Below are positions 11,897 to 30,890 of a stretch of 32,000 bases of DNA, one piece after another. Numbering within the stretch: position 1 is the first letter of the stretch; each line of letters opens with the position of its first letter. The position numbers and the translations under genes are program-made. The notes beneath the pieces are model-generated. The model was not told the origin of the DNA. It did no database searches and was given only the letters and a program-made list of their open reading frames with translations. Source of the DNA: Pelotomaculum isophthalicicum JI (GTDB lineage: Bacteria > Bacillota > Desulfotomaculia > Desulfotomaculales > Pelotomaculaceae); contig NZ_JAKOAV010000015.1 of assembly GCF_029478095.1 (NCBI RefSeq), positions 3,332 through 35,331 on the forward strand, read 5' to 3'.

Positions 11897-11949
11897 GAAT
11901 TTTCACTCCCTGAGTTAATTATTCTCACCATTGTAGTGGCCAGGGCGAT

Positions 11950-11955: not shown

Positions 11956-12239
11956 GTCACATTATTGACATTATTTAAACTAATCCGATAATTTTGCAAA
12001 TTGTCCAGCTTTATAACTCCGATAATGTAAATAGCCACGTAATTTGTTCCATTACTGGCTAACCAAAGTAACTACCGGCAGATGGTTTCATAAACAATCT
12101 CATTTAAGCCATTAACCCGGTTTTATTTAATCTTATACATTTAGATGATTAACTATAGTAGTTCGTCATATTACTATGATATGCCTTCTATTTCAAGAAA
12201 AAAGTTTTACATAAATTGCAACATAATTTGACAAATGGG

Positions 12240-12493: not shown

Positions 12494-12550
12494 AAATATG
12501 GCACCCCCTGTCTATACTACCATTGTATAACAGAAAGTGCCAAAGGTAAA

Positions 12551-12610
12551 TACATTTATTATTTTAAATATACATCTTTTATTTTAAAACTACTTTTACT
12601 ATTTTAAATC
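12551..12610. repeat. Three contiguous 20-bp direct repeats (TACWTYTWYT-ATTTTAAA-NN); candidate TnsB-binding sites of the decayed element's right end
   Basis: tacatttattattttaaata / tacatcttttattttaaaac / tacttttactattttaaatc. 14 of 20 positions are invariant, the period is exactly 20 bp, and the repeats sit 57 bp upstream of the tnsA remnant start. Confidence 0.8.
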
Positions 12611-12636
12611 CACAAAAATCTGTTTGTGTAAAATAA

Positions 12637-12765
12637 TGTTGTACACTAACAGACTCCATCACACAATGATTACTCAACTAAAAAGCAATTAACACAAAAA
12701 AATAGTTGTACACTATAATTCTAGCGTTTTATACTTTATTGAAATATATAGTTGTACACTATAAA
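12637..12765 (-). mobile_element. Putative left (cargo-distal) end of the Tn7-like transposon: three direct GTTGTACACTA repeats
   Basis: GTTGTACACTA occurs at 12638-12648, 12705-12715 and 12751-12761 with similar A/T-rich flanks. The outermost copy is preceded by TGT (12637). The dispersed three-site layout over about 130 bp resembles Tn7 left ends. It lies directly downstream of the last cargo gene. Confidence 0.6.
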
Positions 12766-12790
12766 TTATGTTTGACGTTTCCAATTGTAT

Positions 12791-15577: not shown

Positions 15578-16076
15578 AAAATCCTCCCCCGATTTCTTTT
15601 ACAACTTCATTTCGATGCACATTATTATCCTCGACCATGATTATTTGCGCTTCCCTCGCCACACCGTTCCAAAGAGCAAAGGTTACATTCAGTTCATGTC
15701 CCCCCCGCAAACGTAAATAGGCGTGTTCGTTGGAATCGATTCGCCATTGCCGCCAATTGCAATTACAGCCGAAAACAATTCCTACATTGTTGCCATAAAA
15801 GTCCTGCACCCGTACAATCAATCGTTGAACTCGGTTGCGTAAAAACGTAAAAGCTGCCTCAGAATCCAGCGTCTCTAAAACGGTTTGCAACCCGACAACA
15901 AATATAGTTTTACCATCCCCAGATGGGATGGTAGATGGTAGTTTTCCTCCGATCCAGTTAAGGGCCTTATGCAAGGGTATTTGCACTCCATTTTCTAGTA
16001 GGGGGCTCAATAATTGGGCATCCCATATTAAACTGCTGCCCGAACGTAACCAGCCATTACCCCTTATCTCTCTCAA
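15558..16076 (-). CDS. 172-aa protein of unknown function (candidate DUF3780-, BrxF- or BrxB-like accessory component)
   Basis: There is no ATG in the first ~150 codons. The TTG start at 16076 overlaps the methyltransferase stop (gcTTGA). Both ends are overlapped by neighbouring genes. It contains SGDGKTIFVVG, a degenerate P-loop-like string of uncertain meaning. Confidence 0.6.
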   Translation of the reverse strand: MREIRGNGWLRSGSSLIWDAQLLSPLLENGVQIPLHKALNWIGGKLPSTIPSGDGKTIFVVGLQTVLETLDSEAAFTFLRNRVQRLIVRVQDFYGNNVGIVFGCNCNWRQWRIDSNEHAYLRLRGGHELNVTFALWNGVAREAQIIMVEDNNVHRNEVVKEIGGGFYVRRYS

Positions 16077-19000: not shown

Positions 19001-20053
19001 GTTGCCCTTACTGTAATCTTTTAAACCCCGGGCATACGCTTGAGAAAGCTCCGTAAATTTACCTTCACCCGGCAGTATAACCCTGGGCGCTCCCGGCGCC
19101 ATCCGGGTTTCACCCAATTCGGCATGAAAAGACGTACCGCAGGAGGGACACTTTAATTCAATGTAACTGGTGGACAACTTTTTTTCCGCTACAACAGGCG
19201 AGCGAAAAACGGGTGTACGGTGGCCACAGCCGGTAGCAGGGCAAGGGCCATGTTTGGCCCAAAATGTATAGATAACCTCCGGCCCTTCCCAGCGATAATT
19301 ATGTCTTTCTTCTGGTGGCAAATCGATAGGATCCACAGATGCTATTTCATTTGTTCGTACATCAATCCAATTGCCCTTATGCCCACGGGGGCAGGTAGTT
19401 GTATAAAATGGCTGTATTTGAGGCTTTACTTCAGCCTCAATATGTTCAAAAAGTTTAGCAACCTCTTCCGGGTCTGAACAAGACAGTTCGTTTTTCACTA
19501 CCAACCATGCTACAGGGTTTAAATCAACCCCGTACATTTGCATGCCCAGGCGGGCTCCTTCAACCAGAGTGGTCCCACCACCCATAAAGTTATCTAAAAC
19601 TTTAAGATTTTTAAAATTTCCGGCCTTCTGGTGGTTTGCATAGTAATGCTCCCACACTTTTTTCGCAGCTTCGGCAGGATCTTCAGGGGCCTCGGTGGCA
19701 GCTGCTATCAAGGTTGATCTAAAAACTGAAGACCGTCTCCGTGCCCACCATTTTGACATTTGATAAATAGGTTTACCAGCGTTACCTTCCAGGGCTGACA
19801 AGGCATTAATTGGCGCTATGGGGAAATCCACCTCAAGGCAGGTTTTGGGACGGTCTGGATCAGAAAAATCCGGTACCTTTAGACGAACTGCTTTTCCTAA
19901 ATTGGGTGGAGCATCTTTTTGAATAATTTTTTTGGTAGTGCTTTTTGTTTCATTAAAGTTTAAGCTGGGACTCTCTAAAATTTTAAGCTGCTCATTATCA
20001 ACAACTAGTTGTAAATCACCATTTGTTGACTTGCTTTTTCGTCTAGCTGCCAT
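16073..20053 (-). CDS. Large DUF1156-type (COG1743-like, PF01555-class) N6-adenine/N4-cytosine DNA methyltransferase with multiple Zn-ribbons (PglXI-like)
   Basis: 1326 aa. N-terminal MSKWWARRRSSVFR (DUF1156 hallmark). AdoMet motif VLDNFMGGGTTLVEGARLG. Catalytic motif IV VITDPPF at residues ~880-883. C-terminal GGLLAFTFHH...AGFILVATYPIRSDET. Several CxxC...CxxC pairs (CPSCGTSF, CCPSCGT, CHCPACEAEG). Confidence 0.9.
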   Translation of the reverse strand: MAARRKSKSTNGDLQLVVDNEQLKILESPSLNFNETKSTTKKIIQKDAPPNLGKAVRLKVPDFSDPDRPKTCLEVDFPIAPINALSALEGNAGKPIYQMSKWWARRRSSVFRSTLIAAATEAPEDPAEAAKKVWEHYYANHQKAGNFKNLKVLDNFMGGGTTLVEGARLGMQMYGVDLNPVAWLVVKNELSCSDPEEVAKLFEHIEAEVKPQIQPFYTTTCPRGHKGNWIDVRTNEIASVDPIDLPPEERHNYRWEGPEVIYTFWAKHGPCPATGCGHRTPVFRSPVVAEKKLSTSYIELKCPSCGTSFHAELGETRMAPGAPRVILPGEGKFTELSQAYARGLKDYSKGNAGEKLAGILRLLESAGDEPGLCCPSCGTFSGEKLITELERQRGKIKGYVNNEPVYDFKSGNVDKKALGIGRKPVYMTLLIHPEWLKGSPGTLNEMDLGGFAKATAEQTEAWFRERLKNLELIEVRGRIKLDEDDSHAYFDEEEYAGEDGEGNVHEQDLNSGEIDDADVDTDRKKYGLPRYLELPDGTVMDTRQGTVPGKSKFTCQNSACGRENDLLTAVKMSLSLNDMAEALKAGGYAPEWVDQLRQSGRLALVRQAIIAGEKEDKEIIELAADSNFNQNALEIVKDTRRTAPVATYALQCHCPACEAEGYNYNGRYFKAPDDYDLRRIIFAEREWAERKNGDLFDYWPKERLPYAWMTHHLNGGIPNWGYTHWWTMFNPRQLLLHSLVLRLSILKIKDHSLIDLQQVVGGLSQALNFLNLFCTYNIKRDHNNQLFANNNFYPKQTNIEVAPFGTLGNGNYYSIKKNVINGLNWLQNTWDVYISNASDNKSSKHLFTNEILKSIEDIYCFSSTDLNFCQDNMIDMVITDPPFSDNVFYADLADFFYVWLRIPMLKWYEDKPEAEYWRSTATPKTLEAIRNRAEHPDDREEWEKKPTIKADHLQYIRDYMQDNALNIGDPNPLYRTEPATEFYENTLTACWMEANRVLKPGGLLAFTFHHNDDRQWEAVLRSLFEAGFILVATYPIRSDETKGEGGAFGSRKIEYDILHVCRKRLEDPTPVSWAKMRRWVKEEVKNQQRILELYRNQDISEADIRVVLRGKALEFYSRHYGQVFTGSGEVLSIKDALLGINQLLDDTGGDLVKRPPESALPVTRLFLSLFQNTETLPRDDVHKMLRGTTVTIDDLIELGWVVEVNKKVSVVPLEQRFAFLTRPGKRRDSIKLDLDIAHFVIGAAFPKSGIDIQKELSEEKLNYKPPVEAILGWYAEMSPHLHIRQASELGRRLLQGWRKNNLIKPTKPKFVQYALDLREEGEVYDA

Positions 20054-21051
20054 TACATTTCCTCCGGAAATTCAATTAATGGTACCAATACCTCAAAAAC
20101 TGTTAACCCTCCATGTGTCAGGTGGGGGTAACCTCCCTGTATCTTCCAGCGCCTTTGTCCCAGCACCATATGGTGATTATTTATGGTTGTGGCCAATGCA
20201 GGCATAAAACCGACAGGGAACGGAGTATCAGCCACACATGAACGGCTTGCGCCAAAATATTTAATTAAAATGTCTTTAGCTTGTTGTTCAGTTTCTTCGT
20301 TGGAAAATAATTTGCAATTAGCATAGCCATGATCTGAAGCAATAACCAGTTTCCTGCCTTTTCGCATTTTATTGACTAACTGCCAAAAGCCTGGACTGGT
20401 AAGTTCCTGTTGCACAGCATTCTCTACTTCCTCGGGTTCCCTTTTATAAAGGTGGATTAAGTCGTCAAGCCAACAGTGCCAAATAAATATATCCGGCGAA
20501 GGAGGAACGTCTCCTAGACAGTCCTGAAAAGGAGATGTCAATACATCGGTCCGGGTGGTCTTCCCTCCCAAAAGGAAAGAATCTGTAGCACCATTATTAA
20601 AAAGGCTCGCTCTGGATGGCATACCTAAAGCTTTGGCAAATTGTTCTGTTTCCGTTGGTAATTCAGCTCCTGTTATTTTTACAGAAACAGGATCCAACCC
20701 ATTAGCCCTGGCATTTTCAATTAACGGTTTCAATTCCCGCAAAGACAAAGCGTCAAGGATCAGTATAGCCCTGCCACCTACAGAGTTATCTTCCCACCAG
20801 CCTTTTAAGGCCTCCGCTGTACTGGTTACACAATCTATAAAATCATGCCATAGATTCCAGGCCGACTCTGCCAGTAACCTATCCAGTTTTACTGTAGCCT
20901 GATGCAGCATGGTCGGACTTACTTCCGGGGCTATCTCTAAAAGATAATTGATTATAGCCAGCCAGCAATTCTGGCTATTAGTATCATTTAATAAATTAAT
21001 CAATAAGTCTTGTTGTTTATTCAATAACTCTTTGTTTATATTACCCATCAA
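20053..21051 (-). CDS. pglZ: Stand-alone short PglZ-domain (alkaline-phosphatase superfamily) protein
   Basis: Motifs AILILDALSLRE, ELPTETEQFAKALG (nucleophile region), VIASDHGY and THGGLTVFEVLVPLIEF match the PglZ core. The track start at 21051 is TTG. ATG at 21048 overlaps the upstream stop (TGATG). The stop overlaps the methyltransferase start (TAATG). Confidence 0.8.
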   Translation of the reverse strand: MMGNINKELLNKQQDLLINLLNDTNSQNCWLAIINYLLEIAPEVSPTMLHQATVKLDRLLAESAWNLWHDFIDCVTSTAEALKGWWEDNSVGGRAILILDALSLRELKPLIENARANGLDPVSVKITGAELPTETEQFAKALGMPSRASLFNNGATDSFLLGGKTTRTDVLTSPFQDCLGDVPPSPDIFIWHCWLDDLIHLYKREPEEVENAVQQELTSPGFWQLVNKMRKGRKLVIASDHGYANCKLFSNEETEQQAKDILIKYFGASRSCVADTPFPVGFMPALATTINNHHMVLGQRRWKIQGGYPHLTHGGLTVFEVLVPLIEFPEEM

Positions 21052-23807
21052 TCTTTTCCCTCCGGCATGGTAACTTCCAAAATTGCCCGGGTGGTCGGCG
21101 GTAATTTTTGCAACAAGGCTTTTAGTTCTTTGACTGTAAGGCCTTTAAATTCCAGCTTTGCCAGGGATAATTTATCTGCTGTAGCCAATCCCCAGTTTTC
21201 AAATTCACCGGAAAGATTTAGGGTTGTTTTTTCCTCACTTCGTTTAACAGTAGGAGGCTTTATCCCCATTGTAGTCCCGGGTGTACCGTTCCTGGGAATT
21301 CCAATGGTTCCTCCACATATCGGGCCATCGCCTGGTGGCTCAGGAACTGGAACACCTGGTCCATTAACAGGCGGGACAACTGGGTCTGTAGGAATCGGAG
21401 GTGTCGTTGTCGGTGGTTGTGGCGGCGGAATCACGGTATCAGCACCTACTACGTCAGCTGTACCTAATATAATGTCATATAGCTCCTTACCACGTTTGGA
21501 TGCCTTTGTCCGTAACATCTGCAAAGTTACCTGATCATTTGCATGATCATCTTTCTTGCCCAGCCAGCTACCGCCTACATTAAGATAAATTTTCCCTGAT
21601 GCAGCCACCCGCAATATCTGCTCATAAATATAGATTTCTCCCAAATAAGGTACAGGCTCAACACCAGGCTTCACCGGTGGTTCCTTTAACTCAGTAAGAA
21701 ACGCCCCGACTGTCTGGGTATTGGAAGCAGCTTCTCCTACCATAATTTCAAAGTCTTCGAATGCAAACAAATTTTCTCTTATGACTTTTTCCACTTCATT
21801 TACAATTTCTGTACCACTCTTTGTTATCTGCTCAAAAGTAAATTTGCAATTTTGGGGGTTTTGAAAGTCCCAACTTTGTAAAACGGCAAAGCGATCATAA
21901 CGTGAACTGAGGGCTTTAATTAAATCGGTACGGAATTTACTTCCTTCTTTATTGTAATGTGCATCATTATTCCCCCATTGTTTACCCAGTAACGCAGCCC
22001 TGGCCTGAATAACTATTTCTTTGTCATCAAATATTGAGGAAGTGCCAACTTTAGGCAAAAGAAAACGTACTACATTCCGCTGTTTCGTTACATGTTTTTT
22101 CAGCCAGAGGCCCAGGTCGGAATTAAAATTTTCGGTGACTGCAGGTACTACAAATAAAACCGGTCTGTCCCAGCGCTCTGGTTGGTCATTTTCATCCAGA
22201 CCCTCCCACGGTGAGGTTAACCAAGAGGGTCCCGGGACAATTACTCTTGCCACAGACTCAGCGGCTACAGGTGTTAATGCATAACGTAATGTACTACGCA
22301 TGTATTCTTTATCACTACCATCTTCGAATAACTTATCATTTTTTGCCGAGGCCAATAATTTTGCCCTGGCGTTTTCTTCGACTTTAAACCTAAGGCGAGG
22401 CTGAACACCTTCCTCCTCATGAATATTGAAGGAGTTCTCTTTTATTTGAGTCAGTTCATCATTAAAAATATTGTCGTCGATTACAGATGACCTTGTAATA
22501 TCTAAATGCAACTCTTCTCTAATTCCACCAACTTTTATGCCAGGAGAAATGGACCGCATCCATAATGCGCTGATAATTCCTCTGGCGTTCGGGGCCTGTA
22601 CACCTGCTTGAATGACAGCCTCTAAATTTCGCTGAGCAATTTCTCTTAGCCGGTCTTGCTTTTCATCCGAAATAGCGTCCAGCAAAGACTGGACACCGCA
22701 GTCAACATTATCTACTGCAAAGTCTGCCGGTGTAATTATGCAATTACTTTCCGGTGTAGCCTTAAATATCTGTACTAGCACCTTAATCAAATCTCTGGAG
22801 CCCTGGGCTGCTTCTGAAAGTAAAATCTGATCTTCTAATAAATCTATTAACTCAGGTGCAAAGGGCCATGATTCCACCACTTCATTATGAATCCGGTCAT
22901 ATTCTGCTGCCGGTAAATGGCTATAGAGCAATCGAAACCGTTCAGCGGCATATACTGCTGTAGCTTGGCGTATTTCATTATCTGGAATATTACGCCGGTT
23001 TTCAAAAAGCCTATGCAAAACCAACCGTTTACGATCAGTTTTCGCTGTAACCCCTTTGAAATCAACCAGTGCGGGATTATCACGGTGGACCTGCCTATAG
23101 GCATCAGTTTGATTGTTACGAACAGAAATTATAAACCTAAAGATATCAGGGCGGTCCTTTGATAATTCCGAAAGGTTTTGTATGAAATTAAATGTCCAGG
23201 TGCGACGTTTACGACCGGTATCACCTGGCTCATCGTTAAGTCCATCAAACCAAGTTTGAAACTCATCAACAATAAGAACTGTTGGTTGTAGAGAAAACAT
23301 CTCTTCCATTAACGATCTGGCTGGAACAGGCACTCCCGAGGCCTCAAATTTCCCCTGCATTTTTTGCCCAGAAGGATGGCGCTCAAAAAGCAGGTCCCAT
23401 AGATATTCATATTCATTATTATGAACTGCTTCGGTTATTGGATAAAAACCTGAGGATAATTGTAAGTTTATCAGCTTATCGTTTCTCAGGCGCTGTCCCC
23501 AATCTTGTGCCCACGTCTCCACCACATCACGCGAAACGACAGCATGGTGGAGAGCTGCCATGATATGAGATTTACCGCGCCCCCTGTCGCCAATAAGAAC
23601 AACAGGCTTGCCAGTTCCCGCTTCACTGATAGCAAATAGTGCTTTTTGCAAATCTACAACTGGGTAGGTAATTCTAAAAAAATCCTCACTAGGTAAATCT
23701 AATGCGCCGGTACCATCGTCCCTCCGAAAGACAATGGCAGTATCACGCATATGCCCGTTTAAAAATTCCGCCCGCAGTTTCAAATCAAGCATAATTTTTT
23801 CCCCCAA
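21048..23807 (-). CDS. DUF499/BrxC(PglY)-like P-loop ATPase
   Basis: Walker A is VVLIGDRGRGKSHIMAAL and Walker B is VLIVDEFQTWF. The size and N-terminal layout are typical of COG1483/DUF499. The track start at 23807 is TTG. ATG at 23792 (MLDLKLRAEF) lies 8 nt after the SD GGGGGA and is more likely. The C-terminus has a Pro-rich linker plus a domain of about 90 aa. Confidence 0.85.
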   Translation of the reverse strand: MGEKIMLDLKLRAEFLNGHMRDTAIVFRRDDGTGALDLPSEDFFRITYPVVDLQKALFAISEAGTGKPVVLIGDRGRGKSHIMAALHHAVVSRDVVETWAQDWGQRLRNDKLINLQLSSGFYPITEAVHNNEYEYLWDLLFERHPSGQKMQGKFEASGVPVPARSLMEEMFSLQPTVLIVDEFQTWFDGLNDEPGDTGRKRRTWTFNFIQNLSELSKDRPDIFRFIISVRNNQTDAYRQVHRDNPALVDFKGVTAKTDRKRLVLHRLFENRRNIPDNEIRQATAVYAAERFRLLYSHLPAAEYDRIHNEVVESWPFAPELIDLLEDQILLSEAAQGSRDLIKVLVQIFKATPESNCIITPADFAVDNVDCGVQSLLDAISDEKQDRLREIAQRNLEAVIQAGVQAPNARGIISALWMRSISPGIKVGGIREELHLDITRSSVIDDNIFNDELTQIKENSFNIHEEEGVQPRLRFKVEENARAKLLASAKNDKLFEDGSDKEYMRSTLRYALTPVAAESVARVIVPGPSWLTSPWEGLDENDQPERWDRPVLFVVPAVTENFNSDLGLWLKKHVTKQRNVVRFLLPKVGTSSIFDDKEIVIQARAALLGKQWGNNDAHYNKEGSKFRTDLIKALSSRYDRFAVLQSWDFQNPQNCKFTFEQITKSGTEIVNEVEKVIRENLFAFEDFEIMVGEAASNTQTVGAFLTELKEPPVKPGVEPVPYLGEIYIYEQILRVAASGKIYLNVGGSWLGKKDDHANDQVTLQMLRTKASKRGKELYDIILGTADVVGADTVIPPPQPPTTTPPIPTDPVVPPVNGPGVPVPEPPGDGPICGGTIGIPRNGTPGTTMGIKPPTVKRSEEKTTLNLSGEFENWGLATADKLSLAKLEFKGLTVKELKALLQKLPPTTRAILEVTMPEGKD

Positions 23808-23948: not shown

Positions 23949-24137
23949 TTACCTGAATTGATTATTAATATTGCTGGTAAAAATTGTGGCAAATAAAAGT
24001 AATGAGGAAGCCACAGGACCTGGACCGGTCAAGCCTTCCTCTGTGGTCACCGGTCCAGGACCTATGGGGTTGTGATTGAAAACTCGCTCCAAGGGTCGGG
24101 CGGTCGTGCTCTTGCGGCATTCCTTATTTACTGCCAT
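23949..24137 (-). CDS. Hypothetical 62-aa protein (possible small membrane protein) in the intergenic region between the KAP gene and the BREX-like operon
   Basis: ATG preceded by a strong SD GGGAGGG at 8 nt. C-terminal hydrophobic stretch VASSLLLFATIFTS. The ORF also contains a 14-bp inverted repeat that may be the real functional element. Confidence 0.3.
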   Translation of the reverse strand: MAVNKECRKSTTARPLERVFNHNPIGPGPVTTEEGLTGPGPVASSLLLFATIFTSNINNQFR

Positions 24138-24200: not shown

Positions 24201-24237
24201 AAAAAATAAATAACCGGAGAACTTACCGGTCAGTTCT
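24201..24237 (-). terminator. Intrinsic terminator after the KAP NTPase gene
   Basis: Minus strand reads AGAACTgaccggtaAGTTCT, or alternatively ACCGGtaagttctCCGGT, followed by TATTTATTTTTT. Confidence 0.5.
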
Positions 24238-24331: not shown

Positions 24332-27300
24332 TTACCCTACTTTTCTTTGAATTTTATCTAACAATTTTGATTCCGGGAAAAAACTTATTAGTATTGCAAG
24401 ATCGTCTTCGGTAAGCTCCTCATATTTCCTTAAGTTGCGAAATACGGCGCCAACCTTTAAATCTTTCATCCAGGCTGCAAATTTATTTTTAATTACTTGC
24501 GATGTAACGGTAATAAAACATCTAAGTAATGTCACCCCAAGATCGTACTGTTCTTCTTTTGAAGTAAACAATTTATTTATATCCTCTTTGGTTTCAAAAA
24601 TTGTCCTTGCGGTCTCAGGAATTTCTTGAAGCTTAAAAACTTCTGGCAAAACTGAAATAAAGAAATCATTTCCCAGTTCTTGAGAAGTCCGACTAATAAG
24701 TAACCAGATACGTTTTCGTTGTTCGTCATTTAACTCAATATCGGTTACAGATTTTTTAAGTAAATCGGCTTTGTGCATTTTTTGCAAATCAAGCCATATT
24801 TGCAGACATAGATCAGGCTCCTGCTCCGTCCCCTTAGGCGTTTTACCCAAAATAAATTTTGTTGTGGCAACCCTTTGCTCATCGTTCAATATACCTACTA
24901 TATGGGACCAAGCTTTTTTAAGTTGGTCGATTTCTTCTTTCTCTTGTATATTGATCTGATCCATAAGTTCCGATATTCGCGACGGGCTGGGGGCTTGCCT
25001 GAACGCCAGAAAGGTATTGAGAGAATGAAACTGGTGATATGGCCACAGTATACAGGCCGTCTCAATTACATGTGCAATATTTTCCTCACCAACAATACCT
25101 CTCTGTACCATTTCCCGCATTGAATATATAATTCCATAAGAAGCTTCATTGTTTGGGTACTGAGCAGCAAACGTTTGAGCATCATTGAAAAGCTGCTGTG
25201 GGTTATATGGACTCAATTCAGCCTGTTGCATGGGCCAATATTTAGCCATTTGTTCGTGAAGCCAACCAAATAATGCTGGATTATTTCTTGCATTTATAAA
25301 TAATCCATGTAACATGGATCCTGCTTGAGGTAGCGGGCCATATTTGATAAGCCGTGGAAATACAGGAAAAACTATATGTAGATAATCAGTATTATTCAAT
25401 AAACGTGCTGTCTGTGAAAACATATTCTGTAAGTGAGATTGAATAGTTCCATACTTTATAGCTTCCTCCGGCAATTGGCTCATGAAACGTTGATAATGTT
25501 GTCCTCTTTCCTCTGTTACACTATTTGGCTGAGACATTTCCTGTAGATATGAAGTTACCTGATTGCGCTGTTCATCATTAAGACCACTAATAAAATTGTT
25601 GCCGAGCCAATTAATGCAGGGTTCAGGAAGATCCAACAATATACGTCCGGACCAGTTAGCTATGATTTCTCCTGTAAGCGTTTTATTAATGTTTTGTAAT
25701 GTACTTACTAAACAGGTTGAGAAAGCTGAAGTTTCAACCACATTGCTCCAGCTAATTGCAAGAGCTACGAGAGCTTGTTGGGCCTCATTACCGATATCAT
25801 TTATTCGCCCCTCAACAATATTCAGCAGAGCCAATGCTCCGTCTTCCCAATCAAGACCCCAGTTTTTATCATCCTCCATATCTTTATTAAGACGATTAGC
25901 AAAACTCATGATAAATGAGGTGAGAGCATTAGAATCAGGCTCTTTTTGATATCGTCTCATTAATTCCCAGGCAAGAGCAACCGCTTCCTTCATCTTAACC
26001 GCCACATACCTGGTCAACAAATCCCATAGCTCTATCCGGCTCTCCTCACCTGCATCCCATAAGCTTTGAAAAACGCTACGACTTCTTCCCATTACAACAT
26101 CTGTTTTAAGTTCTTGAGTCTGTTCACTTTCCATCTGGGCAGCGAGTAATTTTGTATAGCGGCCCCCGAGGGCACTTAATAAATGTTCTTGGTTTTCATC
26201 CATCCATGTTTCTAATTCGCTGAAAGGAAATATATATTCTTTACTTCTAATTGCAACACGTCTTATTTCGAGCCAACTTAAAAATGCACTGTCAGATTGT
26301 TCGTCCAGGCCGTTTCGCTTTCTCACCCATAAAACTAAAAGACAGGCCTGGCGTGCCATTTCGACAGCTTCGTCGTAAGAAGGAGGCTGTCCACTTTCCA
26401 AGCGAAAAGTAATATCCCCTTCAGTTCTTAGTAAATCTTCAATCAACCTTCCAGCTATATCTTTTTGTTCCTCAGCTGTGATAAATGGTAATATGTCTTG
26501 TATTTTTTCAATACCGAGCCGCCATCTCAATTCAGGTGAAATCGTTAGCCGGCGCGCAAGCGGACTTAAAAGCATATGTGCTTGTTCTTTGGGGAAACGA
26601 TTAGACAAGACCGCTATGACTGCCGCGGCATGATTTTGCCTGACATCTGTTTCATGATGTAGTTCTTCCTCTAATTCACGGAGCAACCGCATGTCTTCAC
26701 TTGTTAGAGGTCTGGAGTCTTTATCTCGGCCTAATTCTACGAGAACCCCCTGGTAGTCACCTGAGACGAAGGCATCATTAATACGCTGAGCTCCATCACC
26801 ATATTTTCTTGTCACGGGGTCTTGTGAAAGAAGTAAAAGTGGTAGTAGGGTGGATGGCCACCGAAGACCTTGAAGGCTGGCAATATACTGACGTAGAGGG
26901 CGATAATCAGTTTTAAGTTCATTACTCTGGTGATCAAAATATTTATACAAAAGATGTTTGGCTGATTCCGGCTGTTCTTCAATAGGTAAGCTGCGTATAA
27001 AAACATCCGTAAATCTATTGATAAGATTAGGCTCTTGCTGGAGATCGCTGTAAAAATCGGGGAAATCTACACGCAGAGCACAAAGCGCTGCAAGTGAAAA
27101 CGGATGATTGGTTACTGCACCTTCCTGTAGACCACCAGGGCGTTCTGTTCCTGCACCATCGCGCTCACGTTGTCGTGCCAACCACCAGGACTGTACAAAA
27201 GCATTTACAATTTGCAAGGCATTTCGCGGACTTTGTACACCCGGGTGAATCATTCTGTCAATAATATTTTCGAGAGGCACACCCCTATCTTTAAAATCTT

Positions 27301-28390
27301 GAACTATCTCAGGTAATTCACTAATTCTTTTCATCGCATAATCGCGCATATCTCGCTTGGGGAATTGAGGAATCTCAAGACGATACTGAAAAATACGATC
27401 AAGGAAACGACGTGCATCACTGCGGCTAAATCCGGTATTCAAAAGGCCTGATATATTGACATGCTGTCGGCGATTGGCTAAAGCGTTTGCCACCCTCTCT
27501 TCGTCGCAGGAAATAACAAAAACAATTCCCAATCCATCCGGCATCTGATTTTTTGGGATTTCCATAAAAGCCCTAACCGCATCTAAACCACTAACCATTT
27601 CTTCCGCAGAGAGTCGATCAAGGTCATCTATAAAAACTACAAGTCGCTCACATTTCTTGCCTTCTTTTAGGATTGTCCCGCCGGCTTTGTATTTAATTAG
27701 CTGCTTAATTAAAAGATCTTCATATTCTTCATTAGTTGTGCTAGGTGGTTCTATTCTAGTTATATTAGAAGATCGGGGAATTAAAAAATGCTTTAGATCA
27801 AAGGTAAATTTAATTATAGGAACCCCACATGCAAATAAAATAACTGATATAAAGCCTTTTACCCAGTCATTTGATATTTGAAGTTTACTTAGGATTAAAT
27901 ATAATGATATTAAGATAATTAAATATGTAAACGTTATTATTATTAATTGTGGCAAACTCCAAATCCATTTTTCAAAAACATCACGGAGAATATCTTTCCA
28001 TTTTCTTTTTTCAGTTAAGGTTTTTTCAATCTGATGAAATAGGGCATCCTTTAGTTGTAATTCATCTCCACCGATATTAAGAAAAACGTTCCTTAATAAA
28101 GCACGCTTGATATCTTCTCCACCGCATCGCCAAGCATTAAAAGTAATTGTGTGAATCTTCTCAACTCTTTTTGAATCATCCTTTAAAGAGGATAAATAAA
28201 GTGATTTAATTGAACTCTTACCGGTACCCCATTTTCCCAACAAGCCAATGCTATAAGGTGGTTCATTCTTGGAGTTTTCAATAAGACCTTCTAGTGCCTT
28301 TGCAAAATGTCTGTGACCAAAAGCATCAAATTCTACGGAGCTAATTTCCCGATCAAGCAAACAAGGCATTAGTTTTTTTTCTTCAGCCAT
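24332..28390 (-). CDS. KAP-family P-loop NTPase with intra-domain transmembrane hairpin and a C-terminal region of about 900 aa and unknown function
   Basis: 1352 aa. Walker A is IGLLGKWGTGKSSIKSL. Two TM helices (LPQLIIITFTYLIILISLYLIL and GFISVILFACGVPIIKF) are inserted before the Walker B VVFIDDLDRL, which is the defining KAP architecture. ATG with SD AAAGGGGA. Confidence 0.85.
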   Translation of the reverse strand: MAEEKKLMPCLLDREISSVEFDAFGHRHFAKALEGLIENSKNEPPYSIGLLGKWGTGKSSIKSLYLSSLKDDSKRVEKIHTITFNAWRCGGEDIKRALLRNVFLNIGGDELQLKDALFHQIEKTLTEKRKWKDILRDVFEKWIWSLPQLIIITFTYLIILISLYLILSKLQISNDWVKGFISVILFACGVPIIKFTFDLKHFLIPRSSNITRIEPPSTTNEEYEDLLIKQLIKYKAGGTILKEGKKCERLVVFIDDLDRLSAEEMVSGLDAVRAFMEIPKNQMPDGLGIVFVISCDEERVANALANRRQHVNISGLLNTGFSRSDARRFLDRIFQYRLEIPQFPKRDMRDYAMKRISELPEIVQDFKDRGVPLENIIDRMIHPGVQSPRNALQIVNAFVQSWWLARQRERDGAGTERPGGLQEGAVTNHPFSLAALCALRVDFPDFYSDLQQEPNLINRFTDVFIRSLPIEEQPESAKHLLYKYFDHQSNELKTDYRPLRQYIASLQGLRWPSTLLPLLLLSQDPVTRKYGDGAQRINDAFVSGDYQGVLVELGRDKDSRPLTSEDMRLLRELEEELHHETDVRQNHAAAVIAVLSNRFPKEQAHMLLSPLARRLTISPELRWRLGIEKIQDILPFITAEEQKDIAGRLIEDLLRTEGDITFRLESGQPPSYDEAVEMARQACLLVLWVRKRNGLDEQSDSAFLSWLEIRRVAIRSKEYIFPFSELETWMDENQEHLLSALGGRYTKLLAAQMESEQTQELKTDVVMGRSRSVFQSLWDAGEESRIELWDLLTRYVAVKMKEAVALAWELMRRYQKEPDSNALTSFIMSFANRLNKDMEDDKNWGLDWEDGALALLNIVEGRINDIGNEAQQALVALAISWSNVVETSAFSTCLVSTLQNINKTLTGEIIANWSGRILLDLPEPCINWLGNNFISGLNDEQRNQVTSYLQEMSQPNSVTEERGQHYQRFMSQLPEEAIKYGTIQSHLQNMFSQTARLLNNTDYLHIVFPVFPRLIKYGPLPQAGSMLHGLFINARNNPALFGWLHEQMAKYWPMQQAELSPYNPQQLFNDAQTFAAQYPNNEASYGIIYSMREMVQRGIVGEENIAHVIETACILWPYHQFHSLNTFLAFRQAPSPSRISELMDQINIQEKEEIDQLKKAWSHIVGILNDEQRVATTKFILGKTPKGTEQEPDLCLQIWLDLQKMHKADLLKKSVTDIELNDEQRKRIWLLISRTSQELGNDFFISVLPEVFKLQEIPETARTIFETKEDINKLFTSKEEQYDLGVTLLRCFITVTSQVIKNKFAAWMKDLKVGAVFRNLRKYEELTEDDLAILISFFPESKLLDKIQRKVG

Positions 28391-28412
28391 ATTGGTCCCC
28401 TTTCAACCAATT

Positions 28413-28441
28413 TTCATAAAACACTATTTTGTTATTTTCAA
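28413..28441 (-). promoter_or_regulatory. Candidate sigma-70-type promoter of the KAP NTPase gene
   Basis: Minus strand reads TTGAAA-17 nt-TATGAA, ending 22 nt upstream of the ATG at 28390. Confidence 0.3.
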
Positions 28442-28747
28442 CATAAAAAAACAAATTCCTCCAGACATCAAAACTATAAGTAAAACTACTATGCTTCACA
28501 GATAAAGTTATTTTTTAAATATCATAAATAACTTCATTTACCCTTAGTCAAATAAAAAAGACTTTTCAAAGAGGACGTCACATACTGCCCGGCCAAAAAT
28601 CTCGCTGCAAGCTGGTAGATGACATCATACAGGAAGTGGGTGCTTAGCCCACTCTTGAAAAAGCTCTGGGCATAATATATAATTAATTAGCCATTGTTTT
28701 CCTTGTACAATTTCCGAAAGTTTTGCCGCAGTATTTTTTGAACGTCC

Positions 28748-28962
28748 TTACTCATTGGCATACTGCTCGATTTTTGTTCGCAGCTCGCCAAGATTTATAT
28801 CCGCAGAAGCACCGATAATCCAGCTATCCTGGAGTTCACCAATAACTTCAATACCGAATATTCGTAACCCGTCTGGATCAGTGCGACAGGATCGATTTGG
28901 AGATAGAGTGGTATGGCCTGAGGGAGTTCTGGTAATTTTTCCTCATAACACCCGCTTATCAT
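28748..28962 (-). pseudogene. Possible frameshifted gene remnant downstream of tnsD
   Basis: Own translation. ATG at 28962 gives MISGCYEEKLPELPQAIPLYLQIDPVALIQTGYEY... A second frame reads ..DPDGLRIFGIEVIGELQDSWIIGASADINLGELRTKIEQYANE* and ends at 28748. Both read like protein, but neither frame is intact. No family recognised. Confidence 0.2.
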
Positions 28963-29018
28963 TAAAAGAGTTTATCAAAAAAGAGACTATAATGTAGGCT
29001 CCCACTTTTCACGATAGT

Positions 29019-30890
29019 TCATAAATTTTCTATTTCCTTCTGAATCTGCTGTTCTATTTTTTCAGAATACCCCGGTCGAAGCCCCGCCTCGCGGACGATT
29101 TTCCACGTTCGCAGCAATTCCCCCTGCTCACGCAATTTTTCTACCGCATATTCTACTCGTCTAACTTGAAAATTCTCCGCCGTTTCAACCACTTCTTGAA
29201 GAATACTCTTGGTTTTCGGCAACTTCTCCAAGTGTTTTTGCAGTAGCGCCAGTTCCCCAACCCGCTTACCTATTGAACTAATAGTCAAACGAACCGGCCT
29301 ACCGGGCACCTGTTTAATCTCCTGCGCTGCCATGGACACCCGTTCCGCCAATTCCTCGTCGCGTTTAACCCAATTCACGCGCCTGTCAGTATATTTCATC
29401 CGGCGTATCGGGGTAGGTGAATGATCATTTAGCCAGTCACGGTCATGCCGATAAAGCCAAGCATATTCTGCTTTTGTCGACCGGCGCAGTTCCGTCTTCG
29501 TTTTGCCAGGATTATGCTCCGCAATCTCCAGCCAACGGGCTCGATATTTATTCAATTCGCTTTGAAAATCCCTCATTGATAAATCATTTATTAACTGGTC
29601 ATTACTTTGGTCTTGTATTTTTTTCAATTGATTTTTTATAGTTTTCGGGTCTACATTAAGTTGCCGTGCAGATTCTCGTAGTCCCTTTTTCTCTACTACC
29701 GCCAGACGAATCAATTCTTTTTCCCAGGTAGGGCCAAATGATTTTATACGCCCAATTTTATATCGGTCTGATTCCTTTTGATCGGGCCCGCATCTTAAAT
29801 AAGTAAACCCGCAACTACATGAAAAGGTGCCAACAGGTAATCCTGTATCATAATCCCGGGTTAAGCTACATTGCTCAATGACAGGCTGACGGTAGTGGTT
29901 TGCTGCCGCATTTAAGCAAGGCCAAGGTCCACGGCCGAAAGGAAGATAACGCTCTTTCCTACCGGTCAAAAATTTCTCCGGCATTACGCCAAGAAACCTC
30001 ATAAAAAGGATGTGACGTATGGGATATGTAGTAATCCTGGGTTCTCGGACCAGCTTACTTAACCAATTGTCCTGATGATCATAATCAACTGCACTATTCA
30101 TTTGTACAAGAAATTCCGGCCCATAAAAACTCTTAAACGATTCAATCAGGTCTCGCTGTCTTACCCTGCCTGTATATGTTGCCAGGTCTATCTTTTGCAA
30201 GTGGTTGATATATCGATTTCGAAGTTCTGCCAAACCGAGTATCGGGGCTTCATTATTGAGTAGCCAATGAACCGCCTCGGCAACCGCCAGGTAGTGCGAG
30301 AAATCATTTTCTGGGTTAAACGACTTTAATTGCTCTTGTTTATAGTTTTTGATTAAGGGTTGAAAGACATGTTTGTTTTGCTGGGCTGAAACCGCGACAT
30401 CGCTTTCGGTTAACCAGATTTTATGATCAGGACAGATCTGAACGCCAAATACCTGGTGGATCCGGTGCCAATATGGTTCACCGTATTGTTCCTCATCGGC
30501 CTGCATGCACTCATGGCAATAACGGAGAAACCTTGGAGAAGTAATGCTGCTGGCCATGATACCAATCATCGTATGGATCTGCCCCCCATTTGAACCTTTC
30601 ATCGCTTGAATTATCTTGTTAGCCCTTTCTTTTGGCAAAAATGGTCTAAATAATGGAAACAAAGAGTGCCGATTGATCACAAGTTCCGGCGTAATCAGAG
30701 AGCCATGAGGTAAACGTTTATACAATGCCTCCAGACGATTCGGCAGATCCATCACCGCACAGGCCGTTTTGCAGCCGAAAAGGTCCATCATCGTATCCTT
30801 TAAGCTCATATTTCTGCTCCACATGTGATACCTGGCGAAGACGCTATAAAGGATTTCATCTGGATAAGGCGTCGGGAAAAACGGTAACAT
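29019..30890 (-). CDS. tnsD: TnsD/TniQ-family transposition target-selection protein
   Basis: 623 aa. The N-terminus MLPFFPTPYPDEILYSVFARYHMWS is the typical TniQ-domain opening. Cys/His clusters (CHECMQADEEQYGEPYWHRIHQVFGVQICPDH). HTH-like segment ESARQLNVDPKTIKNQLKK. It starts 15 bp after the tnsC stop with SD GGGGGGAAG. Confidence 0.8.
   Translation of the reverse strand: MLPFFPTPYPDEILYSVFARYHMWSRNMSLKDTMMDLFGCKTACAVMDLPNRLEALYKRLPHGSLITPELVINRHSLFPLFRPFLPKERANKIIQAMKGSNGGQIHTMIGIMASSITSPRFLRYCHECMQADEEQYGEPYWHRIHQVFGVQICPDHKIWLTESDVAVSAQQNKHVFQPLIKNYKQEQLKSFNPENDFSHYLAVAEAVHWLLNNEAPILGLAELRNRYINHLQKIDLATYTGRVRQRDLIESFKSFYGPEFLVQMNSAVDYDHQDNWLSKLVREPRITTYPIRHILFMRFLGVMPEKFLTGRKERYLPFGRGPWPCLNAAANHYRQPVIEQCSLTRDYDTGLPVGTFSCSCGFTYLRCGPDQKESDRYKIGRIKSFGPTWEKELIRLAVVEKKGLRESARQLNVDPKTIKNQLKKIQDQSNDQLINDLSMRDFQSELNKYRARWLEIAEHNPGKTKTELRRSTKAEYAWLYRHDRDWLNDHSPTPIRRMKYTDRRVNWVKRDEELAERVSMAAQEIKQVPGRPVRLTISSIGKRVGELALLQKHLEKLPKTKSILQEVVETAENFQVRRVEYAVEKLREQGELLRTWKIVREAGLRPGYSEKIEQQIQKEIENL

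What the first reader, a model, noticed from the sequence alone, without database searches (positions are those of the whole stretch)
24332..28390. 1352-aa membrane-inserted KAP NTPase as a separate transposon cargo unit next to the BREX-like operon
The N-terminal ~330 aa are a textbook KAP P-loop domain, with Walker A, two TM helices inserted in the NTPase fold and Walker B DDLDRL. The remaining ~900-1000 aa match nothing I can recognise and look helical-repeat-like. The gene has its own candidate promoter and terminator. It sits between the transposition genes and the methylation-based system, a position typical of defence cargo. Giant KAP NTPases are frequently seen in defence islands, but to my knowledge they are functionally uncharacterised.
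Basis: partly seen in the sequence, partly recalled or inferred. Interest (0 to 1): 0.65.

Follow-up and report, generated by a model that had tools for sequence, protein, structure and literature searches.

The report
Membrane-anchored KAP ATPase with solenoid arm
This is a real 1352-residue gene for a membrane-anchored ATPase with a very long helical-repeat arm, carried as stand-alone cargo on a Tn7-like transposon; it belongs to a rare, untested family that sits in defence and mobile-element islands and is most likely a single-protein anti-phage sensor.

Summary
Window 24332-28390 (-) encodes a 1352-aa protein. [quoted passage not shown] A two-helix membrane hairpin (aa ~143-196) lies between the two motifs. 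AlphaFold2 (pLDDT 91.6) shows that aa ~520-1352 form one HEAT/ARM-like alpha-solenoid with no enzymatic domain.

The solenoid occurs only in this fixed ~1350-aa architecture: 244 clusters among 1.84 billion representatives, scattered over many bacterial phyla and some contigs labelled archaeal. No neighbouring gene is conserved, so it is a stand-alone unit, not part of the adjacent BREX-related operon.

The gene lies inside a 23.2-kb Tn7-like element inserted 23 nt after glmS in a Pelotomaculum genome. The element has a 5-bp target duplication. An unrelated Tn7-like element in Paenibacillus carries a homologue as its first cargo gene.

Twelve of 14 annotated homologue loci hold defence or mobile-element genes within 10 kb.

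Best reading: a membrane-anchored, nucleotide-switched immune sensor. It is analogous to Tmn and belongs to the recently validated class of KAP-fusion anti-phage proteins. The family itself is untested, so I rate it a new variant of a known kind, of moderate interest.

The parts
24332..28390 (-). Complete gene for the 1352-aa KAP NTPase / alpha-solenoid protein (stop codon 24332-24334)
   Evidence: ORF list and translation. Full-length homologues at 38-61% identity. Identical gene on the public contig MVQK01000006.1.
27197..28312 (-). KAP-family P-loop NTPase domain, aa 27-398
   Evidence: Pfam PF07693, E 1.8e-29. AF2 model pLDDT 91.6; nearest solved folds are RdrA, Cdc6/Orc1, then NLR/Apaf-1.
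28214..28237 (-). Walker A, GKWGTGKS, aa 52-59
   Evidence: Motif search. G52, G55, G57 and K58 invariant in 108 sequences.
27803..27964 (-). Two-helix transmembrane hairpin inserted in the NTPase domain, aa ~143-196: TM1 143-167, loop 168-178 with conserved N/D-D/E-W, TM2 179-193, conserved K194
   Evidence: Kyte-Doolittle scan. Charge-free hydrophobic columns in the 115-sequence alignment. AF2 helices H131-170 and H175-196.
27611..27643 (-). Walker B, LVVFIDDLDRL, aa 250-260
   Evidence: Motif search. D255, D256, D258 and R259 invariant.
26831..27196 (-). Highly conserved helical module with a beta-hairpin, aa 399-520; possibly lid or winged-helix-like, joining the NTPase to the solenoid
   Evidence: Low alignment entropy at aa 401-450 and 501-550. 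AF2 helices plus hairpin E485-492. Foldseek alignments to Cdc6/Orc1 span about 500 columns. The winged-helix reading is inference.
24335..26830 (-). HEAT/ARM-like alpha-solenoid, aa ~521-1352, more variable towards the C-terminus; the putative sensor arm
   Evidence: AF2 pLDDT 91.6, almost entirely helical. Foldseek to transportin-3, Kap121, CRM1, CAND1 and CAP-G at E about 1e-6 but TM about 0.25. No Pfam hit. Found only in this architecture. Entropy 2.3-2.6 bits against 0.8-1.6 in the NTPase core.
24201..24232 (-). Terminator-like hairpin (TGACCGG-8 nt-CCGGTTA) followed by TTTATTTTTT, about 100 nt after the stop codon
   Evidence: Pattern scan and sequence. The scan total is not above the shuffle expectation, so this rests on position only.
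28391..29018 (-). 628-bp AT-rich upstream intergenic region. It holds the ribosome-binding site (AGGGG 7 nt before the ATG), imperfect promoter-like hexamers and a 12-nt inverted repeat at 28502-28537
   Evidence: Sequence. No minus-strand promoter passed the scan. Inverted repeat.
29019..30890 (-). Context: tnsD (TniQ + TnsD domains), the last transposition gene of the Tn7-like element, immediately upstream of the KAP gene
   Evidence: Pfam TnsD E 5.7e-109 and TniQ E 8.7e-24. The public contig shows glmS-tnsA-tnsB-tnsC-tnsD-KAP.
12617..12770 (+). Context: left end of the Tn7-like element. 5-bp target duplication AATCT (12617-12621), then three spaced TnsB-type sites (..GTTGTACAC..)
   Evidence: Pattern search and sequence. 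The same 5 bp and four packed sites occur at the right end, 23 nt after the glmS stop on L059. The element runs from window 12622 to about 35828, 23.2 kb.

Best explanation
The gene encodes a stand-alone, membrane-anchored immune sensor of the KAP P-loop NTPase family. It is carried as one of two independent defence cargo units of a 23-kb Tn7-like transposon inserted at glmS in a Pelotomaculum genome.

**Shown.**
- An intact KAP NTPase with catalytic motifs.
- A two-helix membrane hairpin inserted between Walker A and Walker B. The short external loop puts both the NTPase and the C-terminal region in the cytoplasm.
- A conserved helical connector.
- An alpha-solenoid of about 830 residues with no recognisable enzymatic domain.
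- A fixed architecture across about 240 sequence clusters.
- No conserved partner gene.
- Residence in variable defence and mobile-element islands.

**Inferred mechanism.** I draw on Tmn, PifA, the KAP-fusion defence proteins and STAND/ORC-type switches.
1. The protein sits in the membrane as an oligomer, with the NTPase cores as a hub and the solenoids as cytosolic arms.
2. The variable solenoid binds a phage (or other invader) protein.
3. Binding switches the NTPase through nucleotide exchange, hydrolysis and re-packing of the ring.
4. The output is delivered by the protein itself, because there is no separate effector. Either the clustered TM hairpins perturb membrane or ion homeostasis, or there is runaway ATP consumption. 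Either would stop phage replication in the infected cell.

**My probabilities.**
- Defence or conflict role: about 0.75.
- Solenoid is the sensor: about 0.55.
- Membrane/ion or ATP-drain output: about 0.35.
For: **Domain anatomy.**

**No enzymatic effector.** Pfam, PADLOC, NCBIfam and PHROGs hit only the N-terminal NTPase. Foldseek gives only solenoid proteins.

**NTPase fold.** It is nearest to ring-forming switch ATPases: RADAR RdrA heptamer at E 5.7e-5, Cdc6/Orc1, then NLR resistosomes and Apaf-1.

**Exclusive architecture.** The solenoid is found only in this architecture and is more variable than the NTPase. N-terminal identity to homologues is 49-67%, against 33-60% for the C-terminal part.

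**Stand-alone.** No neighbour cluster is shared by more than 11 of 59 loci, and that cluster contains the annotated integrase of L001.

**Contexts of homologues.**
- Type I RM 60 bp upstream.
- Prophage-type lysis-like genes (a weak Glyco_hydro_19 hit) plus a Schlafen-like helicase in P. aeruginosa.
- ICE with an Xre-RES toxin-antitoxin pair.
- Serine recombinase and integrases plus an NgoFVII-like nuclease.
- Hachiman, NERD and ArdC.
- Integrase, PIN-TPR protein and type I RM.
- Type III RM and an integrase.
- Serine recombinases and Mrr.
- Rhizobial plasmids.
- PADLOC hits among 278 neighbours.

**Tn7 cargo, twice independently.**

**Precedents.**
- KAP NTPase fusions protect E. faecalis from phage. 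For EF_KAP, both Walker B and the C-terminal region are required (PMC13552941).
- Tmn is a decameric TM P-loop NTPase whose HEAT/ARM-like arms bind T2 RIIB and trigger ATP turnover and Mg2+ export (PMC13001434).
- PifA causes membrane depolarisation and nucleotide leakage on T7 infection (as summarised in PMC13001434).
Against: - No experiment exists for this family.
- Oligomeric state, trigger and output are all inferred.
- The TM helices have no conserved charged or polar lining residues, so a pore is not evident from sequence. They may be only an anchor.
- EF_KAP, the best-studied KAP-fusion protein, was reported not to act by abortive infection, so the output may differ.
- Two of 14 annotated loci and the Methanosarcinaceae contig show no obvious defence or mobile genes.
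- I could not compute enrichment against a genome-wide background.
- The family is absent from 50,697 phage records and from PADLOC as a full-length model, so no curated defence catalogue that I could query lists it.
Confidence: 0.6

Rival explanations
1. The protein serves the mobile elements that carry it rather than the host. It could be an exclusion or competition factor against incoming plasmids, ICEs or rival transposons, or a stabilising (addiction-like) function, with the same sensor-switch anatomy.
For: Homologues sit inside an ICE between conjugation genes, on large rhizobial plasmids and on two Tn7-like elements. Others lie next to relaxase or DUF932 genes. The founding bacterial KAP protein PifA is F-plasmid borne, and phage exclusion has been said not to be its primary role (quoted in PMC13552941).
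Against: There is no antitoxin-like partner and no conserved neighbour. Many loci are ordinary defence islands with RM, Hachiman or Gabija systems rather than transfer regions. Tested KAP fusions act on phages.
Confidence: 0.15
2. It is an accessory or regulatory subunit of the neighbouring BREX-related (Hma/DUF499-type) methylase-helicase operon, for example tethering it to the membrane or sensing infection for it.
For: The two lie next to each other on the same strand in the same transposon. There is a weak sub-threshold match of aa 896-990 to the C-terminal part of the BrxC profile DUF6079 (DUF6079 = BrxC according to bioRxiv 10.1101/2025.10.09.681413).
Against: None of 56 homologue loci contains homologues of the five operon genes. 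A gap of about 520 bp with a terminator-like hairpin and a separate promoter-like site (23886-23857) separates them. The DUF6079 match is below Pfam's cut-off and vanishes when the solenoid is scanned alone.
Confidence: 0.05
3. It is a non-defence membrane scaffold or signalling NTPase that organises a membrane-associated complex for host physiology, and is merely hitch-hiking on mobile DNA.
For: Alpha-solenoids are generic protein-binding scaffolds. The eukaryotic KAP protein Kidins220/ARMS is a signalling scaffold (my knowledge). Two or three loci have only housekeeping-type neighbours.
Against: The distribution is rare and patchy: 244 clusters in 1.84 billion representatives, and 56 loci confirmed among species representatives, which is a lower bound. 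Disrupted copies exist (L047, L048). Neighbours are always variable, and most loci are defence or mobile islands. All of this is typical of conflict genes, not of housekeeping genes.
Confidence: 0.1

Closest known systems
[quoted passage not shown]
   Same: Single large protein. Two TM helices are inserted in the P-loop domain after Walker A. It has a long cytosolic HEAT/ARM-like alpha-solenoid that is variable between clades, no separate enzymatic effector, and lies in defence islands. This is the best model for how the window protein may work.
   Different: Different NTPase family. Pfam YobI-ATPase scores only 16.4 bits (cut-off 27) against 103 bits for KAP_NTPase, and no PADLOC Tmn model hit at E<=0.01. 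No Tmn sequence or structure was available to me for a direct comparison of the solenoids. Tmn's decamer, RIIB trigger and Mg2+ export are not shown for this family.
Single-protein KAP P-loop NTPase fusion defences (EF_KAP and three metagenomic proteins; PLoS Biol 2026, PMC13552941)
   Same: KAP NTPase domain with membrane helices, fused to a C-terminal region with no known domain. Stand-alone genes next to recombinases. Walker B and the C-terminal region are both needed for protection in EF_KAP.
   Different: EF_KAP has one N-terminal and one internal TM helix and a C-terminal region of only 322 aa. The window protein has an internal hairpin and about 950 aa after the NTPase. Those proteins come from Enterococcus and gut Bacillota. 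I could not obtain their sequences to test homology of the C-terminal regions.
PifA (F plasmid, exclusion of phage T7)
   Same: KAP-family NTPase on a mobile element. It is the best PADLOC hit (E 4.6e-22) and is a membrane-linked abortive mechanism triggered by specific phage proteins.
   Different: The best-scoring aligned stretch covers only aa 12-111, so the match does not span the PifA model. PifA is about 720-740 aa, is stated to lack TM helices and has no long solenoid.
QatA of the QatABCD system
   Same: KAP-type ATPase; second-best PADLOC and only NCBIfam hit.
   Different: NCBIfam QatA scores 77 bits against a cut-off of 600, N-terminal stretch only. QatA works with QatB/C/D, which are absent from the window.
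STAND NTPases (Avs, bacterial NLR-like proteins) and RADAR RdrA / Cdc6-Orc1 ATPases
   Same: Logic of a nucleotide-switched oligomerising core joined to a long helical-repeat sensor. The nearest solved folds to the N-terminal 520 aa are RdrA, Cdc6/Orc1, then NLR/Apaf-1.
   Different: No NACHT or NB-ARC sequence match. TM scores are low (0.27-0.36). There is no N-terminal effector domain. A membrane hairpin sits inside the NTPase, which those families lack.
Kidins220/ARMS (eukaryotic KAP NTPase)
   Same: KAP NTPase with inserted TM helices combined with a long repeat array (ankyrin). This is from my knowledge of the family definition.
   Different: Eukaryotic signalling scaffold with four TM helices; repeats are N-terminal and of a different type. 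Not compared here.

Membership tests
KAP family P-loop NTPase (Pfam PF07693) | Profile match above the curated threshold | tested here: met
   103.4 bits against a cut-off of 20, E 1.8e-29, aa 27-398 covering profile positions 2-286 of 293.
KAP family P-loop NTPase (Pfam PF07693) | Intact Walker A and Walker B motifs | tested here: met
   GKWGTGKS at aa 52-59 and DDLDR at aa 255-259. The key residues are invariant across 108 sequences.
KAP family P-loop NTPase (Pfam PF07693) | Transmembrane helices inserted within the NTPase domain (the family's founding description: Genome Biol 2004, 5:R30; title seen; paper not held) | tested here: met
   Two hydrophobic helices at aa ~143-196, between Walker A and Walker B, present in all 115 homologues. 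No dedicated TM predictor was available; I used hydropathy and the AF2 helices.
YobI / Tmn defence NTPases | Match to the YobI-ATPase profile or the PADLOC Tmn model | tested here: not met
   Pfam YobI-ATPase 16.4 bits against a cut-off of 27. No Tmn model among PADLOC hits at E<=0.01.
YobI / Tmn defence NTPases | Architecture: TM hairpin after Walker A plus a cytosolic HEAT/ARM-like solenoid | tested here: met
   This is a resemblance in design, not family membership.
PifA | Full-length similarity to PifA | tested here: not met
   PADLOC PifA at E 4.6e-22, but the best-scoring aligned stretch is only aa 12-111 against profile positions 7-105 of 720.
Qat system (QatA) | QatA equivalog score and presence of QatB/C/D partners | tested here: not met
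   77 bits against a cut-off of 600. No Qat partners in the window.
STAND NTPases (Avs / NLR-like) | NACHT/NB-ARC-type NOD module with an N-terminal effector and a C-terminal repeat sensor | tested here: inconclusive
   The repeat sensor-like arm is present. No NACHT or NB-ARC profile hit. Foldseek reaches NLR/Apaf-1 only at E 0.05-0.08, behind RdrA and Cdc6/Orc1. There is no N-terminal effector, since only 26 aa precede the NTPase.
HEAT/ARM alpha-solenoid fold | Superhelical array of paired helices | tested here: met
   AF2 model pLDDT 91.6 with more than 50 helices. Top 50 PDB matches are almost all HEAT/ARM solenoids (E about 1e-6, probability 1.0, TM about 0.15-0.28). No sequence-level HEAT or ARM repeat hit.
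Tn7-like transposon cargo | Location between the tns genes and a transposon end, with TnsB-type end repeats, a 5-bp target duplication and the attTn7 (glmS) site | tested here: met
   Gene order glmS-tnsABCD-KAP. Four packed sites at the right end and three spaced sites at the left end. AATCT duplicated on both sides. Insertion 23 nt after the glmS stop.
BREX / BREX-related (Hma, DUF499-type) system component | Conserved co-occurrence with the system's methylase, ATPase, PglZ or helicase genes | tested here: not met
   No homologue of the five operon genes in any of 56 other KAP loci.
Anti-phage defence system (functional class) | Experimental protection against phage | not testable with these tools
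   Context evidence only.

The most novel reading that the evidence does not exclude
The KAP-solenoid family is an independent, convergent counterpart of Tmn. It would be a ring of membrane-embedded KAP NTPases whose ~830-residue solenoid arms recognise a conserved invader protein. The only effector would be the inserted TM hairpin bundle and/or ATP drain, producing an ion- or energy-collapse state. The module would be functional in both bacteria and archaea and would spread between them on Tn7-like elements, ICEs and plasmids. The 59%-identical copy on a contig labelled Methanosarcinaceae, against a Pelotomaculum host here, would reflect transfer within methanogenic consortia.
Probability: 0.25. 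Interest if true: 0.65.

Novelty: new variant of a known kind. Interest (0 to 1): 0.45.

Why it matters
If the reading is right, this is a compact, single-gene, membrane-based immune sensor with very large recognition surfaces and no classical enzymatic effector.

- It would extend the newly recognised class of KAP-NTPase defences to a distinct, phylogenetically wide family, found across many bacterial phyla and on contigs labelled archaeal.
- It would give a second, independent case beside Tmn of the design 'TM-inserted P-loop NTPase plus solenoid arm'. That would help decide whether the design is a general solution for membrane-coupled immunity.
- The high-confidence structure models and strict domain boundaries make mutational tests straightforward.
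- It adds a clear example of a Tn7-like element whose entire cargo is two separate defence-type units.

Tried and rejected
1. **Sequence search of the PDB.** The whole protein gave no hit at E<=1, so no solved relative is detectable by sequence.
2. **Specific fold for the C-terminal region.** Foldseek against the PDB and BFVD gave only generic solenoid or repeat proteins with low TM scores. I reject any specific functional assignment such as nuclear-transport receptor.
3. **Sub-threshold DUF6079/BrxC hit.** It is below the cut-off and is absent when the solenoid is scanned alone, so I treat it as noise.
4. **Conserved partner gene.** All-against-all clustering of 906 ORFs from 59 loci found none.
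5. **Phage-encoded homologues.** None in 50,697 phage records. PHROGs matched only the N-terminal P-loop stretch.
6. **E. coli genomes by megablast.** No match. This is uninformative at this divergence.
7. **Rfam on the whole window.** Nothing.
8. **Promoter scan.** No qualifying minus-strand site upstream of the gene.
9. **The founding KAP paper.** Not available in the library.
10. **The 2020 eLife conflict-systems paper and the 2026 Nature Avs survey.** Neither mentions KAP.
11. **Per-gene defence counts for the 278 neighbours.** The tool reports only the 25 commonest families, so I give family lists, not a rate.

Full report
**1. The observation**

- Window 24332..28390 (minus strand) is a 1352-codon ORF that starts with ATG and has a good ribosome-binding site.
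- It is identical to a gene called on the public contig MVQK01000006.1 of assembly GCA_002067515.1.
- It aligns over 97-100% of its length with more than 100 proteins of 1332-1390 aa at 38-61% identity. It is therefore a real, intact gene.
- Pfam KAP_NTPase matches aa 27-398 (E 1.8e-29, 103 bits, cut-off 20).
- Walker A (GKWGTGKS, aa 52-59) and Walker B (LVVFIDDLDRL, aa 250-260) are present, and their key residues are invariant in a 108-sequence alignment.
- The only two hydrophobic segments in the protein lie between these motifs.
  - In the family alignment they are charge-free columns at aa 143-167 and 179-193.
  - They are joined by a short loop with a conserved N/D-D/E-W motif and are followed by a conserved lysine.
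  - All 115 full-length homologues have a hydrophobic segment starting within aa ~127-221.
  - AlphaFold2 models them as a helical hairpin protruding from the NTPase core.

**2. The C-terminal two thirds**

- An AlphaFold2 model of aa 400-1352, built from 108 sequences, has mean pLDDT 91.6. It is almost entirely helical, with more than 50 helices and only two short beta-hairpins.
- Foldseek against the PDB returns transportin-3, Kap121, CRM1, importin-13, CAND1, condensin CAP-G and cohesin SA2. E is about 1e-6 and probability 1.0, but TM is only 0.15-0.28.
- This means a HEAT/ARM-type alpha-solenoid, with no specific relative.
- The viral structure library gives only generic repeat proteins.
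- No Pfam family matches aa 521-1352 even at E<=5. The whole protein has no sequence match in the PDB.
- PADLOC, NCBIfam and PHROGs recognise only the first ~110 residues, as PifA, QatA, PDC-S20 and phrog_8614.
- There is thus no detectable enzymatic effector domain.
- Between the NTPase and the solenoid lies a very conserved helical module with a beta-hairpin, aa ~400-520.
- The N-terminal 520 aa (pLDDT 91.6) are closest to the RADAR ATPase RdrA (heptameric ring), archaeal and eukaryotic Cdc6/Orc1 and, more weakly, NLR resistosomes and Apaf-1. These are all oligomerising, nucleotide-switched ATPases.

**3. The family**

- A phmmer search with aa 400-1352 against 1.84 billion representative proteins found only 244 hits at E<=0.001.
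  - Every full-length hit is 1311-1416 aa with the match at about residues 385-1350.
  - The shorter hits are shorter proteins that match only part of the query; I take them to be fragments.
- The solenoid therefore exists only in this one architecture, and the family is rare.
- A scan of one genome per species confirmed 56 loci.
- By contig label, those loci come from Bacillota, Pseudomonadota (alpha, beta, gamma), Planctomycetota, Verrucomicrobiota, Bacteroidota, Actinomycetota, Chloroflexota, Myxococcota, Nitrospinota, Thermodesulfobacteriota, Melainabacteria and Brachyspira. Two contigs are labelled archaeal.
- The NTPase is more conserved (49-67% identity to the window protein) than the solenoid (33-60%). 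Alignment entropy rises from 0.8-1.6 bits in the core to 2.3-2.6 bits beyond aa ~750.
- Some copies are broken or truncated, for example L047 and L048.

**4. Genomic setting in the window**

- Cluster mates of the flanking host genes name the organism as Pelotomaculum, a syntrophic Bacillota genus. Those genes are a sigma-54 activator, a UbiD decarboxylase and a phenylacetate-CoA ligase.
- On the public contig the order is glmS, tnsA, tnsB, tnsC, tnsD, KAP, then a five-gene operon.
- The right end, 23 nt after the glmS stop, has four closely packed ..GTTG(T/G).. sites.
- The left end, at window 12622-12770, has three spaced GTTGTACAC sites in inverted orientation.
- The same 5 bp, AATCT, flanks both ends.
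- This is the canonical Tn7 layout at attTn7. The element is 23.2 kb, from window 12622 to about 35828.
- Its whole cargo is two units.
  - The first is the KAP gene.
  - The second is the operon at 12791-23807: an ATPase, a small protein with a PglZ-C-like region, a 1326-aa methylase related to DUF1156/HmaB, a 172-aa protein and an SNF2 helicase.
  - The operon resembles the 'BREX-related / Hma' systems described in bioRxiv 10.1101/2025.10.09.681413.
- The KAP gene is separated from tnsD by 628 bp and from the operon by about 520 bp. The latter gap contains a terminator-like hairpin at 24232-24211 and a promoter-like site for the operon at 23886-23857.
- A promoter for the KAP gene itself was not found by the scan; only imperfect candidates are visible.

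**5. Stand-alone or part of a system?**

- I called ORFs in 59 loci (906 proteins) and clustered them.
- Apart from the KAP family itself, no cluster occurs in more than 11 loci, and that cluster contains the annotated tyrosine recombinase/integrase of L001.
- Nothing related to the five-gene operon recurs.
- The only neighbours shared with the window are TnsC and TnsD homologues.
- In Paenibacillus naphthalenovorans a 47%-identical homologue is the first cargo gene after tnsABCDE of an unrelated Tn7-like element.
- The gene is an autonomous unit that different mobile elements have picked up repeatedly.

**6. Context of homologues**

Of 14 loci with record or Pfam annotation, 12 contain defence and/or mobile-element genes within 10 kb:

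| Locus (query protein) | Defence or mobile-element genes nearby |
|---|---|
| Window | Tn7-like element, BREX-related operon |
| Ensifer plasmid | IS21, DUF4238, HNH endonuclease, nucleotidyltransferase, integrase |
| Mesorhizobium plasmid | DUF4238, SbcCD-like pair, DUF3320 |
| P0022 | hsdR-S-M ending 60 bp upstream |
| P0099, P. aeruginosa | Prophage-type lysis-like genes (weak Glyco_hydro_19 hit), Schlafen-like helicase |
| P0061 | ICE with Xre-RES toxin-antitoxin, RNase T, NERD |
| P0015 | Large serine recombinase, four integrases, NgoFVII/PLD nuclease |
| P0045 | Hachiman, NERD, transposase, ArdC |
| Paenibacillus | Tn7-like element, tnsABCDE |
| P0062 | Integrase, PIN-TPR protein, type I RM |
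| P0096 | Type III RM, DUF932, adjacent integrase |
| P0074 | Serine recombinases, Phd antitoxin, Mrr |

- Two loci are uninformative.
- Among the 278 nearest neighbours (three each side), PADLOC models matched include Gabija GajA/GajB, Lamassu LmuB, Mokosh, several DRT reverse transcriptases, MADS genes, Hhe, QatC, and type I, II and IIG RM enzymes.
- Pfam adds relaxases, integrases and PIN toxins next to ordinary metabolic genes.
- This is the signature of variable defence and mobile-element islands. It is qualitative, because I had no genome-wide background to compute enrichment.

**7. How it most likely works**

Shown:
- A membrane-anchored P-loop NTPase with intact catalytic motifs.
- Both large cytosolic parts on the same side of the membrane, because the hairpin loop is short.
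- A long, faster-evolving solenoid.
- No other domain and no partner gene.

Inferred, step by step:
- (a) The protein oligomerises through its NTPase, by analogy with the nearest folds and with Tmn's decamer.
- (b) The solenoid is the sensor that binds an invader protein, as shown for Tmn's HEAT/ARM-like arms and T2 RIIB and for repeat sensors of STAND proteins.
- (c) Binding changes nucleotide turnover. In EF_KAP, Walker B and the C-terminal region are both essential for defence.
- (d) With no separate effector, the output must be the membrane hairpins and/or ATP consumption. Precedents are PifA (depolarisation and nucleotide leakage) and Tmn (ATP collapse and Mg2+ export).

Step (d) is the weakest. 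The TM helices have no conserved polar lining, and EF_KAP was reported not to be abortive.

**8. Comparison with known families**

- It is a member of the KAP NTPase family: profile, motifs and inserted TM helices are all met.
- It is not a member of YobI/Tmn (16.4 bits against a cut-off of 27; no PADLOC Tmn hit).
- It is not PifA, whose best-scoring aligned stretch covers only the N-terminal ~100 residues.
- It is not QatA (77 bits against a cut-off of 600; no Qat partners).
- It is not a recognisable STAND family member.
- It works most like Tmn and belongs to the class 'KAP NTPase fused to a region of unknown function' that PMC13552941 (2026) validated experimentally. Its C-terminal region is about three times longer than that of EF_KAP.
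- I found no paper that mentions this family.

**9. Verdict**

- It is not categorically new. It is a distinct, untested variant within a class whose defence role and likely logic were published in 2026.
- Interest is moderate, 0.45. It is a well-defined candidate with high-confidence structure models and clear experiments, and a possible convergent counterpart of Tmn that spans many bacterial phyla and contigs labelled archaeal.

Noticed in passing
window 12791-23807 (-): The second cargo unit is a five-gene operon. Its genes are a 914-aa ATPase (only weak AAA_16 and DUF499 hits, no PADLOC hit), a 332-aa protein whose C-terminal half weakly resembles the end of PglZ, and a 1326-aa methylase (HmaB, PglX and DUF1156 models, all partial). 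A 172-aa protein with no hits and an SNF2 helicase (BrxHI / HmaA / DrmD-like) complete it. It fits none of the PADLOC or NCBIfam systems fully and looks like a divergent BREX-related (Hma/DUF499-type) system.
   Followed up: partly
window 12617-12770 and L059 1622-1715: The Tn7-like ends could be defined: a 5-bp duplication AATCT, three spaced sites on the left, four packed sites on the right, and insertion 23 nt after the glmS stop. The element is 23.2 kb and its cargo is entirely the two defence-type units.
   Followed up: yes
window 24011-24067: A 19-nt inverted repeat (89% complementary, 19-nt loop), CCACAGGACCTGGACCGGT / ACCGGTCCAGGACCTATGG, lies between the KAP terminator and the next operon. 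It sits inside a 62-codon ORF called on the public contig (window about 24137-23949, minus strand). Its function is unknown.
   Followed up: no
window 28502-28537: A 12-nt inverted repeat (ATAAAGTTATTT / AAATAACTTCAT) lies in the AT-rich region upstream of the KAP gene, just downstream of a TTGACT hexamer. It may be an operator.
   Followed up: no
L006 (JAUWQD010000060.1, MAG labelled Methanosarcinaceae), gene at 5107-9162: The closest homologue among species-representative genomes (59% identity over the C-terminal 950 aa) is on a contig labelled Methanosarcinaceae. Its neighbours are FeoB-like, glycosyltransferase and beta-helix/PKD genes. The window host is Pelotomaculum, a syntrophic partner of methanogens. 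This may be inter-domain transfer, but the binning was not verified.
   Followed up: partly
L005 (Paenibacillus naphthalenovorans NZ_FNDY01000030.1) 723-12847: A canonical tnsABCDE Tn7-like element, with a TnsE C-terminal domain hit, carries a 47%-identical KAP-solenoid gene as its first cargo gene. This is an independent acquisition by another Tn7 lineage.
   Followed up: partly
L047 (Halomonas jincaotanensis) and L048 (Pseudomonadales MAG): The family gene is split into three ORF fragments in each, so these look like frameshifted or decaying copies. Several other loci (L007, L010, L035, L043) have truncated copies.
   Followed up: no
window aa 896-990 of the KAP protein (about 25421-25705): A sub-threshold Pfam match (E 4.9e-5, 21.4 bits against a cut-off of 23) to the C-terminal part of DUF6079, the full-length BrxC profile. 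It is not reproduced when the solenoid alone is scanned, so it is probably helical-repeat noise.
   Followed up: partly
L069 8254-9900 and L074 7235-9835: In two unrelated genomes a large serine recombinase gene lies immediately upstream of the KAP-solenoid gene on the same strand. This echoes the recombinase-defence linkage reported in PMC13552941.
   Followed up: no
window 1-11896: Outside the transposon the window carries host genes typical of anaerobic aromatic-compound metabolism (UbiD-family decarboxylase, phenylacetate-CoA ligase, a sigma-54 PAS activator). They are at least 90% identical to Pelotomaculum proteins. The 700 bp between them and the transposon end (11897-12616) lie in the stretch of lowest GC in the window (0.356 for 12001-13000).
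   Followed up: partly
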